Shown piece after piece: positions 15,437 to 19,837 of a stretch of DNA of 64,000 nucleotides. The notes beneath the pieces are model-generated. The model had not been told where the DNA came from and searched no databases. It worked only from the letters and a program-made list of their open reading frames with translations. This stretch comes from an uncultured Alphaproteobacteria bacterium (GTDB taxonomy: Bacteria > Pseudomonadota > Alphaproteobacteria > JAJFIK01), in NCBI GenBank assembly GCA_964522525.1, contig CAZFWG010000003.1, positions 22,067 to 86,066 of the forward strand, written 5' to 3'. Numbering within the stretch: the stretch's first letter is position 1; each line of letters opens with the position of its first letter. The position numbers and the translations under genes are program-made.

Positions 15437-16174
15437 CTATCGCGCGGGCGCCGGTGCCGCGATCCGGCGGATCGTGCCGTCTTCCTGGCCGATAAAGGCG
15501 AGGCTCGCCAGATCCACGAACAACCCGTTTTCCACCACGCCTGGGACCCGGTTGAGCGCCACGGACAAGGCCGCCGGATCGGCAATCCGACCGCAGGCAC
15601 AATCGAAGATCACATTGCCGCTATCGGTCAGGACCGGTTCGCCGTCCTCTTTCATCCGTTGGCGGATGGCAATATCATTCAAGCCGGCGGCATCGAAAAC
15701 CTCCCGCAGGTGCCGTGCCGTGGCGCCCGCGCCGAAGCGGATCACTTCAACGGGCAAGGCGAAAGCGCCGAGCGTGGCGACAGCCTTGCTGGCATCGGCG
15801 ATGATCACGAGCCGCTTGGAGGCCGCCGCGACGATCTTCTCCCGCAGGAGGGCGGCGCCCCCGCCCTTGATCAGGCGCAGATGGGCGTCAAGCTCATCCG
15901 CGCCGTCGACCGTCAGGTCGAGGGGCCCCACATCATCCAGGGACACGACCGGGATATCGCAGTCGCGGGCCAGATCGGCGGTCGCCTCGGAAGTGGGCAC
16001 ACCCCGCACGGACCATCCCTTTTCCTTGAGCAGATGTCCTAATCCGCACACGAAGTGGGCGGCCGTCGAGCCCGTGCCCAGGCCCAGGGTCATGCCGTCG
16101 CGGATTTCGTCCAAGGCGGCCAGCGCCGCGATGCGCTTCTGGTCGTCGGCCGAAAGAAGCTCGGTCACTGTCAT
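15437..16174 (-). CDS. rpiA: Ribose-5-phosphate isomerase A
   Basis: LGLGTGSTA, DGADE, KGGGAALLREKIVA and VPGVVENGLF. Confidence 0.97.
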   Translation of the reverse strand: MTVTELLSADDQKRIAALAALDEIRDGMTLGLGTGSTAAHFVCGLGHLLKEKGWSVRGVPTSEATADLARDCDIPVVSLDDVGPLDLTVDGADELDAHLRLIKGGGAALLREKIVAAASKRLVIIADASKAVATLGAFALPVEVIRFGAGATARHLREVFDAAGLNDIAIRQRMKEDGEPVLTDSGNVIFDCACGRIADPAALSVALNRVPGVVENGLFVDLASLAFIGQEDGTIRRIAAPAPAR

Positions 16175-16192: not shown

Positions 16193-16846
16193 TCAGGCAG
16201 AAAGATCGGGGGCATCGACGTCGCGGCCGCGCCGGCACAGGGTCATCGCCAGCGCGCAGACCCGATCAAAAAGATCGCTGTCGGTGGGCAGCGTCACCTG
16301 CCCTTCCTGCAGGGCCGCAACATGATGGGCGGCCCGTTCGAGCCAGGCGAGATCCTGATGATCGATGCCGCCCTCCGCCGCCAGATGTTTGACGATGACC
16401 AGGGGATCGGTGAACGCCAGACCGGCCTCATCCCCGCCCAGACGCCGCCGGGCCGCGCCCGTAAACAACGCCCAGGCATAGAGCATGGCCGGCACGTGAT
16501 CGCCCTTGCGATGGAGGCGGCGGGCCTCGCTCAACCGTCCCCGGATGATATCGAGGGCCGGAAGGCCCGGTGCCGGGCCTTCGGGTTCCGACAGGACCAG
16601 CCGGAAGCTCCAATCGTCCCGCGCCTTCGCGGCTTCCGCCAAACGCCGGAGCCGATCGGATCCGGCGGCACCGGCGCCCAGCGCCCGGATGCCGACAAGA
16701 ACCGTCCGGTCCGCCTTGCGCGCCAGAAGATCCGGCGACAGATCGGTACCGTCGGGCAGATCCACCCGCGGGCGGATATCCACGTCATATCCTTCGGCCC
16801 GATAGCTCTTGCGCAGCTTGGTAAGAATGTCCGTTTCGCTCGCCAT
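16193..16846 (-). CDS. REase (AHJR-like)-fold domain fused to a HEPN-like helical domain, catalytic motifs degenerate
   Basis: N-terminal YRAEGYDV...PDLLARKADRTVLV...LAE..WSFRLV pattern; C-terminal A.LYAW.L...A.R...DPL..VK.LA.EG.I pattern. AGGA RBS upstream. Confidence 0.7.
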   Translation of the reverse strand: MASETDILTKLRKSYRAEGYDVDIRPRVDLPDGTDLSPDLLARKADRTVLVGIRALGAGAAGSDRLRRLAEAAKARDDWSFRLVLSEPEGPAPGLPALDIIRGRLSEARRLHRKGDHVPAMLYAWALFTGAARRRLGGDEAGLAFTDPLVIVKHLAAEGGIDHQDLAWLERAAHHVAALQEGQVTLPTDSDLFDRVCALAMTLCRRGRDVDAPDLSA

Positions 16847-16884
16847 GGGAATGTTCCTAACCCCTGTCCGCCGCTTCTCGTTCT

Positions 16885-17385
16885 TCAGCCTCCGACACCC
16901 TGGAGCATGAAGCGATGATCCGGCCCGTCCTCAATCCGAACATAGAGGAAATGGGAAGATGTGCCCAGATACTCCGCGACCAGCGGCGGCGGATCCGAAA
17001 GCTCGAAGCCCGCAACCTGGCGCGTCCGGCGCACGACCACTTGGGTCACCCGATTGTCGTCATCGAACACAATCCCGTTCAAGGCATCGAGCACATGCTT
17101 CGGGATGTTATCCGTATCGCAGGCGTAAGGGCCCGTGTGAAACAACACCAAGAGGGCAGAAAGCTCGCCTTCGTCCCGGAATTGCCAGCCGTCCAGGTGC
17201 CCAAGCGCGGCCGTGCCGACCCGTTCCTTCCAGCGCCGCGCCGCCCGGCGATCATTGTTCGCCGAGACCGGAATGCCTTCCACCACGAATTCAAAGGATG
17301 GATGACGGTCCACATTTCGGGCCCGCCGCCCCTTGGTCGCCCCCGGCGCCTGACGTGCCGCGCTGGACCCCCGCGTATCCCTCAT
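16885..17385 (-). CDS. RusA-family crossover-junction endonuclease-like protein
   Basis: FEFVVEGIPVS...W and DTDNIPKHVLDAL.GIVFDDD.RV, matching the RusA DxDNxxK...DD catalytic signature. ATG 17385 overlaps the glmU stop (ATGA); alternative GTG at 17313. Confidence 0.82.
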   Translation of the reverse strand: MRDTRGSSAARQAPGATKGRRARNVDRHPSFEFVVEGIPVSANNDRRAARRWKERVGTAALGHLDGWQFRDEGELSALLVLFHTGPYACDTDNIPKHVLDALNGIVFDDDNRVTQVVVRRTRQVAGFELSDPPPLVAEYLGTSSHFLYVRIEDGPDHRFMLQGVGG

Positions 17386-18806
17386 CGTCCCCCCTCCCCG
17401 GATTTTGACGGATCCGGATCGGCTTTCCGGTTCCGGCGGGCCCGGTTGCGCGCCGCCCAACCGGCCACTTCCCGCTGGTCGGCGCGGGTCACCGCGAGCG
17501 CATCGGCGCTGACGGATTTGGTGACCGTGCTGCCGGCACCGATAAACGCGCCATCCCCGACCGTGATCGGCGCCACCAGCGAAGCATTCGTCCCGACAAA
17601 GACATTCTCACCGATCACCGTGCGGTGCTTGTCATAGCCGTCATAGTTGCAGGTGATGGCGCCCGCGCCGACATTCGTGTGCGCGCCCACCTGGGCATCC
17701 CCGATATAGGACAAGTGATTGACCTTGACCCCCGGTTCCAGCACCGCATTCTTGACCTCGACGAAATTGCCGATCCGGGAGCCCTGCCCAATATCCGCCC
17801 CCGGACGTAAACGGGCGAACGGACCGACAACCGAACCCCGCGCCACCCGTGCGCCTTCGATATGGCAGAAGGGCTTGATCTCCACCGTGTCTTCCACGAC
17901 CACGCCGGGGCCGAACACCACATTCTGGCCGATCGTGACATCCCGCCCGAGTGTCGTGTCCCAGGCGAAATAGACCGTATCGGGATCAGCCAGCGTGACC
18001 CCGTCCTCCATGGCGGCCGTCCGGCGCCGGCGCTGATAGGTCGCTTCCGCCACGGCCAGTTCGGTCCGGGAATTGACGCCCAGCACCTCCGCCGCGTCCG
18101 CTTCGACCACGGCGCAAGGCAGGCCCTTTTCCCGCGCCCTGGCCACGATATCGGTCAGGTAGTATTCGCCCTTGGCATTGTCGTTATCGACGGTCGCCAG
18201 CAACTCGAACAGAAGGGACCCGCCGACGGCCATGACACCGGAATTGCACAAAGGGATGGCCAGCTGTTCCGGGCTTGCATCCTTGGCCTCCACGATGGCC
18301 TCGAGACCACCGTCCCCATTGAGCACCAATCGGCCATAGGCCCCGGGCTCCGGCGGCGTGAACCCCAGAACGACGACCCCCGCGCCCGCCGCCCGCGCGG
18401 CGCGCATGGCCGCCAAGGTTTCGGGCCGGATGAGCGGTGTATCCGCATACAGAATGAGCGCCTCGGCGAAAGCGTCCGGGCAGGCCTCCCGGGCCGCCAG
18501 CACCGCGTGCCCCGTGCCCAAGGGCGGGTCCTGGACGGCGATGGCGCATGGGGGCGAAAACGACCGGGCCGCTTGGGCCACGGCTTCCCCGCCCGCGCCC
18601 ACCACCGTGACGACGCGCTCAGGCGCCATGGCGGCGCAGGCATCCAGGACATGGTTCAGCATGGCGCGCCCGGCAATGTCGTGGAGCACCTTGGGCCGCG
18701 CCGACTTCATCCGTGTGCCCTTGCCGGCGGCGAGGACAATACAGACAAGCCCGCCCGCCGCATCGCCCGATGCAGCTCCGGGCGTGGTTTCAGTGGTGGT
18801 TTCCAT
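17382..18806 (-). CDS. glmU: Bifunctional UDP-GlcNAc pyrophosphorylase / glucosamine-1-P N-acetyltransferase
   Basis: LAAGKGTRMKS, GEYYLTD, GPFARLRPG, GNFVEVK and HLSYIGDA. Start trimmed to METTTE at 18806. Confidence 0.97.
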   Translation of the reverse strand: METTTETTPGAASGDAAGGLVCIVLAAGKGTRMKSARPKVLHDIAGRAMLNHVLDACAAMAPERVVTVVGAGGEAVAQAARSFSPPCAIAVQDPPLGTGHAVLAAREACPDAFAEALILYADTPLIRPETLAAMRAARAAGAGVVVLGFTPPEPGAYGRLVLNGDGGLEAIVEAKDASPEQLAIPLCNSGVMAVGGSLLFELLATVDNDNAKGEYYLTDIVARAREKGLPCAVVEADAAEVLGVNSRTELAVAEATYQRRRRTAAMEDGVTLADPDTVYFAWDTTLGRDVTIGQNVVFGPGVVVEDTVEIKPFCHIEGARVARGSVVGPFARLRPGADIGQGSRIGNFVEVKNAVLEPGVKVNHLSYIGDAQVGAHTNVGAGAITCNYDGYDKHRTVIGENVFVGTNASLVAPITVGDGAFIGAGSTVTKSVSADALAVTRADQREVAGWAARNRARRNRKADPDPSKSGEGGR

Positions 18807-19762: not shown

Positions 19763-19837
19763 GGGCACGTAGCTCAGTGGGAGAGCACTGTCTTCACACG
19801 GCAGGGGTCGCTGGTTCAATCCCAGCCGTGCCCACCA
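19763..19837 (+). tRNA. tRNA-Val (anticodon CAC)
   Basis: Acceptor stem GGGCACG/CGTGCCC, D-arm TAGCTCAGTGGGAGAGC, anticodon loop TTCACAC, T-loop GTTCAATC and encoded 3' CCA. Confidence 0.97.

What the first reader, a model, noticed from the sequence alone, without database searches (positions are those of the whole stretch)
16193..17385. RusA-type nuclease plus REase-HEPN partner inserted between glmU and rpiA: candidate two-gene conflict/defence module on a housekeeping transcript
Seen in sequence: two co-oriented genes sit between glmU and rpiA. The first starts in an ATGA overlap with the glmU stop (17382-17385); the second has its own AGGA RBS 38 bp later. Gene 1 keeps DTDNIPK...DALxGIVFDDD. 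Established: this is the RusA Holliday-junction resolvase catalytic set (D-x-D-N-x-x-K...D), and RusA genes normally occur in prophages. Gene 2 resembles REase/AHJR-like-HEPN fusions. No phage or integrase gene is nearby. Inference: an active nuclease paired with a disarmed nuclease-fold partner fits a toxin-antitoxin or anti-phage/anti-plasmid module, here captured so that it is co-expressed with essential glmU.
Basis: partly seen in the sequence, partly recalled or inferred. Interest (0 to 1): 0.75.

Follow-up and report, generated by a model that had tools for sequence, protein, structure and literature searches.

The report
Domesticated RusA nuclease with dead-nuclease partner
Two genes wedged between the housekeeping genes glmU and rpiA are an old, now fixed copy of a widespread but apparently undescribed two-gene nuclease cassette, in which the RusA DNA-junction nuclease is still intact and its partner has lost both of its nuclease active sites.

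Summary
Gene 1 (16885-17385, minus strand) is a RusA-family nuclease with an intact catalytic motif. Gene 2 (16193-16846) is an AHJR-like restriction-endonuclease domain fused to a HEPN domain, and both of its active-site motifs are lost.

The pair belongs to a conserved cassette: RusA followed by REase-HEPN, usually with overlapping stop and start codons. At least 200 species-representative genomes carry the partner gene. They include Chloroflexota, Binatia, Spirochaetia and Proteobacteria, plus Rhizobium, Agrobacterium and Azospirillum plasmids. Contexts vary and sometimes include AbiE, R-M, Fic or IS genes. In those copies all three nuclease motifs are intact.

At this locus the pair is not a mobile module. 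It is an ancient insertion into an ancestral glmU-rpiA junction. It has been inherited vertically in at least 10 diverged alphaproteobacterial lineages. RusA is conserved as well as or better than rpiA. The partner lost its REase motif first and its HEPN motif later, yet remains under purifying selection.

My best reading, which is an inference, is a domesticated junction nuclease with a pseudo-nuclease subunit, expressed with the operon. No defence database or paper I searched describes the pair.

The parts
17382..18806 (-). glmU, full length (474 aa); first gene of the operon. Its stop codon overlaps the gene 1 start.
   Evidence: Pfam NTP_transferase and Hexapep hits. It aligns over residues 21-453 with the GlmU of another alphaproteobacterium. 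The start codon was checked.
16885..17385 (-). Gene 1: RusA-family junction endonuclease (166 aa). It has a roughly 28-aa basic, low-confidence N-terminal extension.
   Evidence: Pfam RusA 36.1 bits against a cut-off of 22.8, plus PHROG RusA-like hits. AF2 model and Foldseek matches to 1q8r and 2h8c. ATGA overlap with the glmU stop.
17098..17118 (-). RusA catalytic motif D90-T-D92-N93-I-P-K96.
   Evidence: These residues are invariant in the clade alignment. The combined catalytic pattern D-x-D-N-x2-K...DD is kept in 62 of the 66 sequences aligned: 65 active-family RusA ORFs plus the window sequence.
17056..17064 (-). RusA second acidic motif D108-D109-D110.
   Evidence: D110 is invariant and D109 is conserved in at least 90% of sequences. 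DD is kept in nearly all sequences of the alignment.
16847..16884 (-). 38-nt spacer between gene 1 and gene 2, with AGGA 8 nt before the gene 2 ATG.
   Evidence: Sequence. In active-family loci the two genes instead overlap by about 4 nt.
16193..16846 (-). Gene 2: REase(AHJR-like)-HEPN fusion protein (217 aa) with both nuclease motifs degenerate.
   Evidence: Pfam AHJR-like 40.9 bits against 26.1. Full-length homology to a family that carries D..ExK and RNxxxH. AF2 model.
16577..16846 (-). N-terminal restriction-endonuclease-fold domain (about residues 1-90).
   Evidence: Pfam match to residues 3-89. Foldseek matches to Hjc (4tkd, 1ob8, 2wcz) and Bax1.
16685..16693 (-). Degenerate REase motif G52-I53-R54, where the active family has E-x-K.
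   Evidence: Alignments and motif table.
16214..16555 (-). C-terminal all-helical HEPN-like domain (about residues 98-211).
   Evidence: It aligns with the HEPN half of the family. Plasmid relatives pass the Pfam HepT-like threshold. Foldseek matches to 2hsb and 2q00.
16304..16321 (-). Degenerate HEPN motif V176-A-A-L-Q-E181, where the active family has R-N-A-I-A-H (Rx4H).
15437..16174 (-). rpiA (245 aa), the next gene in the operon, 18 nt after gene 2.
   Evidence: Pfam Rib_5-P_isom_A, 200.8 bits.

Best explanation
Shown: the two genes are a chromosomally fixed, partly degenerate copy of a widespread two-gene cassette. The cassette is a RusA-family nuclease followed by an AHJR-like REase-HEPN fusion protein. 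In an ancestor of an uncultured alphaproteobacterial lineage it inserted exactly at the junction of an older glmU-rpiA operon. It has been inherited vertically since. The partner lost its REase E-x-K motif first and its HEPN Rx4H motif later, while RusA kept all its catalytic residues.

Inferred: RusA now works as a host enzyme. I propose it is a junction- or branched-DNA-specific endonuclease acting in recombination and repair. It is made constitutively from the glmU-rpiA transcript. The catalytically dead partner survives as a non-catalytic subunit, a pseudo-nuclease that binds RusA and/or DNA to target or restrain it. On this reading the locus is no longer a toxin-antitoxin pair or a mobile defence module.
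For: Identity and folds.

The cassette is a unit. Of 79 partner-gene loci from species-representative genomes, 65 have a RusA-like ORF upstream on the same strand. In 61 of them it ends at the partner's start, usually with a 4-nt overlap. No third gene is conserved. The same pair occurs on Agrobacterium, Rhizobium and Azospirillum plasmids.

Active copies keep the RusA motif (62 of 66 aligned sequences), REase D..ExK and HEPN RNxxxH.

Insertion: 80 other alphaproteobacterial rpiA loci lack the pair, and in 11 of them glmU abuts rpiA directly.

Vertical inheritance: the same HAD / glmU / RusA / partner / rpiA / gor arrangement is found in 8 diverged lineages, counting the window. Two further short contigs show RusA-partner-rpiA. 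The trees are congruent, with distance correlations of 0.62-0.87.

Stepwise loss: P0111 and P0112 sit in the same locus with a dead REase motif (A-F-R) but an intact HEPN motif (R-D-x3-H). The window sub-clade has lost both.

Selection: RusA amino-acid identity is 57-85% against 50-75% for rpiA over the same genome pairs. RusA dN is 0.10-0.36, rpiA 0.19-0.50 and the partner 0.21-0.68. All ORFs are intact. The dead partner has its own clade-specific conserved motifs.

Operon embedding: ATGA overlap with glmU, partner-rpiA overlaps in relatives, no promoter-like site and no more terminator-like sites than in shuffled sequence. GC3 is close to that of the flanking genes.
Against: No biochemical or genetic data exist for any member. 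A physical RusA-partner interaction is only inferred from gene linkage. I could not check whether these genomes lack RuvC or RecG, so a need for an extra resolvase is unproven.

dS is saturated, so the dN/dS values are rough. Conservation of a gene inside an essential operon could be inflated by constraints on translational coupling.

A disarmed sensor subunit paired with an active nuclease effector is also a common layout in defence systems. In three relatives the upstream glmU is truncated, so the operon is not uniformly housekeeping.
Confidence: 0.5

Rival explanations
1. The pair is still an active conflict module (anti-phage, anti-plasmid or toxin-antitoxin). RusA is the effector or toxin that cuts branched replication or recombination intermediates. 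The catalytically dead REase-HEPN protein acts as a sensor, regulator or antitoxin. The module is simply parked in a housekeeping operon.
For: The ancestral cassette has the hallmarks of a conflict module. It occurs in variable contexts, with several copies per genome and cross-phylum identities of 61-78%. It occurs on plasmids and next to AbiEi/AbiEii, IS5, a restriction endonuclease, HsdM, Fic and a recombinase fragment. A small upstream gene overlapping a HEPN gene mirrors the MNT-HEPN TA layout. Dead nuclease domains often serve as sensors.
Against: The pair is fixed at one locus across lineages whose rpiA is only 50-64% identical, whereas defence and TA genes normally turn over quickly. 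RusA is conserved as well as or better than rpiA. The presumed toxin domains (HEPN, REase) are the ones that are inactivated. There are no PADLOC hits. No relatives were found in viral or phage collections. From my own knowledge of the literature, RusA expression is tolerated in E. coli and yeast, so it is a poor toxin.
Confidence: 0.25
2. The strong domestication version: the RusA-partner complex has become the main cellular Holliday-junction resolvase of this lineage, replacing RuvC.
For: RusA is very strongly conserved and constitutively embedded in the operon. From established knowledge, E. coli RusA can replace RuvABC when expressed, and some bacteria use non-RuvC resolvases such as RecU.
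Against: This could not be tested. I could not scan the genomes for ruvC, ruvAB or recG, and the 64-kb window contains no obvious ruv gene either way.
Confidence: 0.15
3. The pair is a functionless relic: a decaying remnant of an inserted cassette, retained only because deleting it would disturb glmU-rpiA expression.
For: The partner has lost both catalytic motifs. Translational coupling between the two genes has relaxed, with spacers of 12-238 nt.
Against: Both ORFs are intact in at least 10 lineages despite saturated synonymous divergence. dN/dS is 0.06-0.28 for RusA and 0.19-0.58 for the partner. The RusA catalytic residues are invariant. The partner has clade-specific conserved motifs.
Confidence: 0.07

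Closest known systems
E. coli RusA Holliday-junction resolvase (DLP12 cryptic prophage; Pfam PF05866; PDB 1q8r, 2h8c)
   Same: The fold is the same (Foldseek TM 0.71-0.75). The Pfam model is passed. The acidic and lysine motifs D-x-D-N-x2-K...D-D are retained.
   Different: Sequence identity is only about 14%. Sequence searches against PDB chains find nothing. The gene is not in a prophage. It is always paired with a REase-HEPN gene. The window form carries a roughly 28-aa basic N-terminal extension. Activity is untested.
AHJR-like REase fused to HEPN (HepT/DUF86-type), noted by Anantharaman et al. 2013 (PMC3710099) and captured by Pfam PF18743
   Same: The two-domain architecture is the same. 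Plasmid relatives score 164 bits on AHJR-like and pass the HepT-like threshold. The window protein passes AHJR-like.
   Different: The window protein has lost both E-x-K and Rx4H. The main text of the paper says the HEPN-M family is occasionally fused to this REase, and I found no mention of a RusA neighbour there; the one supplementary file held as text also had none.
HEPN-MNT (HepT-MntA) toxin-antitoxin pairs
   Same: A HEPN-domain protein is encoded just downstream of, and overlapping, a smaller gene that itself encodes an enzyme.
   Different: The upstream gene is a RusA nuclease, not a nucleotidyltransferase. The HEPN protein carries an extra REase domain. At this locus the HEPN site is dead and the pair is vertically fixed.
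Archaeal Hjc resolvase and the Bax1 nuclease
   Same: The N-terminal domain of gene 2 has this fold.
   Different: The catalytic Glu and Lys are replaced (G-I-R). The domain is fused to HEPN. The organism is bacterial.
Cellular resolvases RuvC and RecU
   Same: The proposed role is similar: a constitutive, chromosomally encoded junction nuclease.
   Different: The folds are unrelated. The role is inferred, not shown. RuvC status in these genomes is unknown.

Membership tests
RusA family (PF05866) | Matches the family profile above the curated threshold | tested here: met
   36.1 bits against a cut-off of 22.8, residues 87-121. PHROG RusA-like families at E = 7e-9 and 2e-7.
RusA family (PF05866) | Catalytic acidic residues and lysine (E. 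coli D70, D72, K76, D91; residue numbers from my knowledge of the literature) | tested here: met
   D90, D92, N93, K96 and D110 are invariant in the clade. The combined pattern is kept in 62 of 66 aligned sequences: 65 active-family RusA ORFs plus the window sequence. The mapping to E. coli residues is inferred from the Pfam match region.
RusA family (PF05866) | RusA fold | tested here: met
   AF2 model with pLDDT 85. The top seven PDB hits are all E. coli RusA chains, with TM 0.66-0.75 normalised to the target and E = 2e-4 to 9e-4.
RusA family (PF05866) | Holliday-junction binding and cleavage | not testable with these tools
   This needs purified protein and synthetic junctions.
AHJR-like REase (PF18743) | Matches the family profile above the curated threshold | tested here: met
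   40.9 bits against a cut-off of 26.1, residues 3-89.
AHJR-like REase (PF18743) | PD-(D/E)xK catalytic residues (E...D...E-x-K) | tested here: not met
   D39 is kept, but E-x-K is replaced by G52-I-R54. The active family has E-[VI]-K. The protein is a member by descent and is predicted to be catalytically inactive.
HEPN superfamily | Rx4-6H motif | tested here: not met
   The window has V176-A-A-L-Q-E181 where homologues have R-N-A-I-A-H. Relatives P0111 and P0112 in the same locus still have R-D-x3-H.
HEPN superfamily | Helical HEPN fold and homology to HEPN families | tested here: met
   The C-terminal half aligns along its full length with family members that pass the Pfam HepT-like threshold (25.8 and 24.0 bits against 23.5). 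Other members give sub-threshold hits to six or seven different HEPN-clan models. The model matches 2hsb (TM 0.59 normalised to the target) and 2q00. The window protein itself has no direct Pfam HEPN hit.
Type II / type VII toxin-antitoxin module | One product is toxic and is neutralised by the other | not testable with these tools
   This needs expression assays.
Type II / type VII toxin-antitoxin module | Patchy distribution, variable loci and mobility | tested here: not met
   This is met for the active cassette. It is not met for the window form, which is fixed upstream of rpiA in all 10 lineages found.
Known anti-phage defence systems (PADLOC-DB v2) | Match to a model of a known or candidate defence protein | tested here: not met
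   There were no significant hits for the window pair or for active relatives from MAGs and plasmids. The only matches listed were two for P0111 at E about 0.02.
Prophage-borne RusA | Located in a prophage or phage genome | tested here: not met
   The window has no phage genes. The partner family has no relatives in IMG/VR or INPHARED phages.

The most novel reading that the evidence does not exclude
The RusA + REase-HEPN cassette may be a previously undescribed three-nuclease conflict system, either defence/abortive infection or an enzyme-antitoxin TA. It is spread by horizontal transfer among co-habiting bacteria, with many hosts looking like sponge-symbiont lineages, and on rhizobial plasmids. 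The window would then capture its full domestication: a lineage in which the cassette became a housekeeping Holliday-junction resolvase complex with a pseudo-nuclease regulatory subunit, possibly taking over from RuvC.
Probability: 0.25. Interest if true: 0.8.

Novelty: new variant of a known kind. Interest (0 to 1): 0.6.

Why it matters
All three domains are known. Their obligate pairing as a two-gene cassette is absent from PADLOC, NCBIfam and every paper I could search. The cassette is common, with 1351 representative clusters for the partner family, and it occurs in culturable Rhizobium, Agrobacterium and Azospirillum plasmids. Its function can therefore be tested directly.

The window adds a rare, well-resolved domestication series. 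There is a dated insertion into an identifiable empty site. The two active sites were then lost one after the other, while the third nuclease became as conserved as a core metabolic enzyme. That makes two questions testable: how conflict nucleases are recruited to host DNA metabolism, and what pseudo-nuclease subunits do.

Tried and rejected
- NCBIfam and PADLOC gave no hits for the window pair. PADLOC also gave no significant hits for active relatives.
- Sequence searches of PDB chains, with single proteins and with profiles, found nothing meaningful. Only fold comparison links the proteins to RusA, Hjc and HEPN.
- The first pattern search with the mixed alignment A2 failed because no stretch was conserved enough. 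I repeated it with the active family only.
- The partner family was not found in IMG/VR viral contigs or GenBank phages, so I dropped the prophage-origin idea for this cassette.
- I looked for a third conserved gene and for a larger shared mobile element around paralogous copies. There is none; similarity stops at the ORF borders.
- Literature searches (AHJR-like; RusA with HEPN; RusA with TA or defence; PF18743) found no description of the pair.
- The promoter and terminator scan of the operon was uninformative: no promoter-like sites, and terminator-like sites at the level of shuffled sequence.
- I could not obtain taxonomy below 'Alphaproteobacteria bacterium' for the pair-bearing MAGs.
Full report
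**1. What is in the sequence.**

The minus strand carries four genes in a row:
- glmU, 17382-18806
- gene 1, 16885-17385, 166 aa
- gene 2, 16193-16846, 217 aa
- rpiA, 15437-16174

The gene 1 ATG overlaps the glmU TGA as ATGA. Gene 2 follows after 38 nt, with AGGA 8 nt before its ATG. rpiA follows gene 2 after 18 nt. A divergent HAD phosphatase gene and tRNA-Val(CAC) lie upstream of glmU. An alpha/beta hydrolase, glutathione reductase and DAHP synthase lie downstream. The window otherwise looks like ordinary chromosome, with 63% GC and no phage or integrase genes.

**2. Identity of the two proteins.**

Gene 1 passes the Pfam RusA threshold (36.1 bits against 22.8). The match covers only the catalytic core, residues 87-121. 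It also hits PHROG RusA-like families. D90, D92, N93, K96 and D110 are invariant among its relatives. Its AlphaFold model (pLDDT 85) has E. coli RusA chains as its seven best PDB matches, with TM 0.66-0.75 normalised to the target. Sequence-only searches of the PDB find nothing, so this is a divergent RusA.

Gene 2 passes the Pfam AHJR-like threshold (40.9 bits against 26.1, residues 3-89). Its model (pLDDT 87) is a restriction-endonuclease-fold domain followed by a helical domain. The first half matches archaeal Hjc and Bax1. The second half matches the HEPN proteins 2hsb and 2q00.

The first homology search found only three proteins. A profile that included a distant pair from a Dehalococcoidia genome recovered a family of about 220-aa proteins. 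This family has a conserved REase motif (A-D-L-L-V ... E-T-K-V-I-E-V-K) and the HEPN signature Y-R-N-A-I-A-H-G-F. Plasmid-borne members score 164 bits on AHJR-like and pass the HepT-like (HEPN) threshold. Other members give sub-threshold hits to six or seven different HEPN-clan models. This architecture was noted by Anantharaman et al. [quoted passage not shown]

In the window protein both motifs are gone. E-x-K has become G52-I-R54, and R-N-A-I-A-H has become V176-A-A-L-Q-E181.

**3. The pair is a conserved cassette.**

A scan of species-representative genomes found 200 relatives of the partner, of which the best 79 loci were kept.
- In 65 of the 79 loci a RusA-like ORF lies upstream on the same strand.
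- In 61 of them it ends at the partner's start, typically with a 4-nt overlap.
- The remaining 14 loci, 11 of them in Caldilineaceae, lack an intact RusA ORF. Some show possible remnants and others have different upstream neighbours.

The RusA catalytic pattern is kept in 62 of the 66 sequences aligned, which are 65 active-family RusA ORFs plus the window sequence. No third gene is conserved. The 313 neighbouring ORFs fall into 199 clusters.

The hosts are 34 Dehalococcoidia, 27 Caldilineaceae, 10 other Chloroflexota, 4 Binatia, 2 Spirochaetia, 1 Arenicellales and 1 Paracoccaceae. Cross-phylum identities are 61-78%. Some genomes have two copies, and similarity between paralogous loci stops at the ORF borders.

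The contexts are mixed. Some neighbours are metabolic genes. Others are HsdM, Fic/DOC, a recombinase fragment, an MNT-like nucleotidyltransferase and a PAPS-reductase-like gene.

The same pair, with all motifs intact, occurs in cultured bacteria:
- On Agrobacterium tumefaciens pTi_CFBP2177 it sits beside ligD, imuA, a Y-family polymerase and a GHKL ATPase.
- On the conjugative Rhizobium sp. T136 plasmid pT136b it sits beside AbiEi/AbiEii, IS5, a GHKL ATPase and a restriction endonuclease.
- On Azospirillum lipoferum 4B plasmid p4 it sits in a non-defence context.

There are no relatives in IMG/VR or GenBank phages. There are no significant PADLOC hits for any member tested. No paper in the searchable library describes the pairing. 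An exhaustive profile search gives 1351 representative clusters for the partner family, 430 of them at E below 1e-10.

**4. At this locus the pair is ancient, vertical and embedded.**

Every relative of the disarmed form that I could place lies in the same arrangement: HAD (opposite strand), glmU, RusA, partner, rpiA, then hydrolase or Exo_endo_phos, gor and DAHP synthase. This holds for 7 MAG lineages besides the window. Two short contigs also show RusA-partner-rpiA. These genomes are far apart, with rpiA only 50-64% identical to the window and dS saturated.

RusA, partner and rpiA trees recover the same groups, and their pairwise distances correlate at r = 0.62-0.87.

I then scanned metagenomes for the 80 rpiA genes most similar to the window's (49-59% identity). 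None has the pair. The common order there is HAD / [glmU] / rpiA / gor, and in 11 loci glmU directly abuts rpiA. So an empty site exists, and the pair is an insertion exactly at the glmU-rpiA junction. The GC3 of the pair (0.73-0.75) is close to that of its flanks (about 0.80), as expected for an old insertion.

**5. Order of decay, and selection.**

The profile search revealed intermediates. P0111 and P0112 are in the same locus. Their REase motif is dead (A-F-R) but their HEPN motif is intact (R-D-x3-H). P0113 is further degraded. The sub-clade containing the window has lost both motifs. The L094 lineage (P0112) branches at the base of the RusA and partner trees. The sequence of events was therefore insertion, then REase loss, then HEPN loss. 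The REase motif may alternatively have been lost before the insertion.

Throughout this series the RusA catalytic residues stay invariant. RusA is conserved as well as or better than rpiA: identity 57-85% against 50-75%, and dN 0.10-0.36 against 0.19-0.50. The partner evolves faster (identity 39-71%, dN 0.21-0.68) but is intact everywhere, with dN/dS of about 0.2-0.6. It also has clade-specific conserved motifs that the active family lacks: RLR, RL..LA, ARRL.R.GD and FDR.C. Coupling between the two genes has relaxed from a 4-nt overlap to spacers of 12-238 nt in most lineages.

**6. Mechanism.**

The following points are shown: identity, cassette status, insertion, vertical fixation, ordered loss of two of the three active sites, and purifying selection on both genes.

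The following is inferred. In this lineage RusA has been recruited as a host enzyme, most plausibly a junction- or branched-DNA nuclease in recombination and repair. It is expressed constitutively with glmU and rpiA. The dead REase-HEPN protein persists as a non-catalytic subunit that binds RusA and/or DNA.

The main argument against a TA reading is as follows. HEPN and REase would be the expected toxin domains, and they are the ones that died. Once they were dead, an 'antitoxin' RusA should have decayed. Instead it is among the best-conserved genes in the locus.

The main argument against an active defence system is fixation at one housekeeping locus over very deep divergence. I cannot exclude that RusA is a defence effector guided by a pseudo-nuclease sensor (0.25). 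I also could not test whether the complex replaces RuvC.

For the ancestral, fully active cassette, a conflict function (defence, abortive infection or an enzyme-antitoxin TA) is the most likely reading. This rests on its distribution and on its neighbours in some loci. It is untested.

**7. Comparison with known systems, and novelty.**

The parts are members of known families: RusA by profile, motif and fold; AHJR-like REase by profile and fold; HEPN by descent. In the window protein the defining catalytic motifs of the last two were tested and are not met, so it is a pseudo-enzyme member of both.

The layout resembles MNT-HEPN TA pairs, but with a RusA nuclease in the upstream position. The pairing itself is not in PADLOC, NCBIfam or the searchable literature. 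I rate it a new variant of a known kind: a two-gene nuclease cassette, here in a domesticated state. I do not rate it categorically new.

**8. Verdict.**

Interest is 0.6. The locus is not the active mobile defence module that was proposed. It does expose a common, undescribed, experimentally tractable cassette and an unusually clear domestication series.

Noticed in passing
L001:4949-6004, L004:555-1598, L007:4402-5493 (relatives); compare window 17382-18806: In three pair-bearing relatives the glmU ORF is only 347-363 aa. It ends at about residue 320-337 of the window protein, so most of the C-terminal acetyltransferase half is missing, and RusA starts in an overlap with that early stop. The window glmU is full length. 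Those genomes may have another glmU, or this copy may be uridyltransferase-only.
   Followed up: partly
L011-L089 (record titles): Hosts of the active cassette are overwhelmingly uncultured Dehalococcoidia/SAR202, Caldilineaceae, Binatia and Spirochaetia MAGs. Their bin names (SB066x, RHO2, MPML/MPND bins, UUID isolates) look like sponge or marine-symbiosis projects. SB066x bins are listed among sponge-type Entoporibacteria in PMC7883664. Cross-phylum identities of 61-78% suggest exchange within a shared habitat. The habitat link is my inference and was not verified.
   Followed up: partly
L041:6850-7528, L046:6850-7737; 11 of 27 Caldilineaceae loci: In Caldilineaceae the REase-HEPN gene is expanded. 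There are two loci per genome, tandem second copies, and many copies without an intact RusA upstream. Some show possible remnants and others have different neighbours, such as an HsdM C-terminus in L041, L049 and L067.
   Followed up: partly
L066 (contig labelled Paracoccaceae) against L041 (Caldilineaceae): The partner gene is 94% identical and flanking DNA segments are 83-91% identical between a contig binned as Paracoccaceae and a Caldilineaceae contig. This is either very recent transfer or a mis-binned contig.
   Followed up: no
L177:4613-6547 and L178:6238-8217: On both rhizobial plasmids a roughly 650-aa GHKL-type ATPase (Pfam HATPase_c_3, with a weak PADLOC REase_II hit) lies convergently downstream of the pair. 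In pT136b an IS5 element separates them. It is not conserved with the cassette in other phyla.
   Followed up: partly
window 17302-17385 (gene 1 residues 1-28): The glmU-linked RusA proteins carry a basic, poorly conserved N-terminal extension that the model predicts with low confidence. It begins M-R/H-x-T at the ATGA overlap and is absent from the active-family RusA proteins. An in-frame GTG at codon 24 could be an alternative start.
   Followed up: no
window 19763-19837 (+): tRNA-Val(CAC) lies just beyond the divergent HAD gene. No integrase or repeat is associated with it, so it is not an integration site for the pair.
   Followed up: yes
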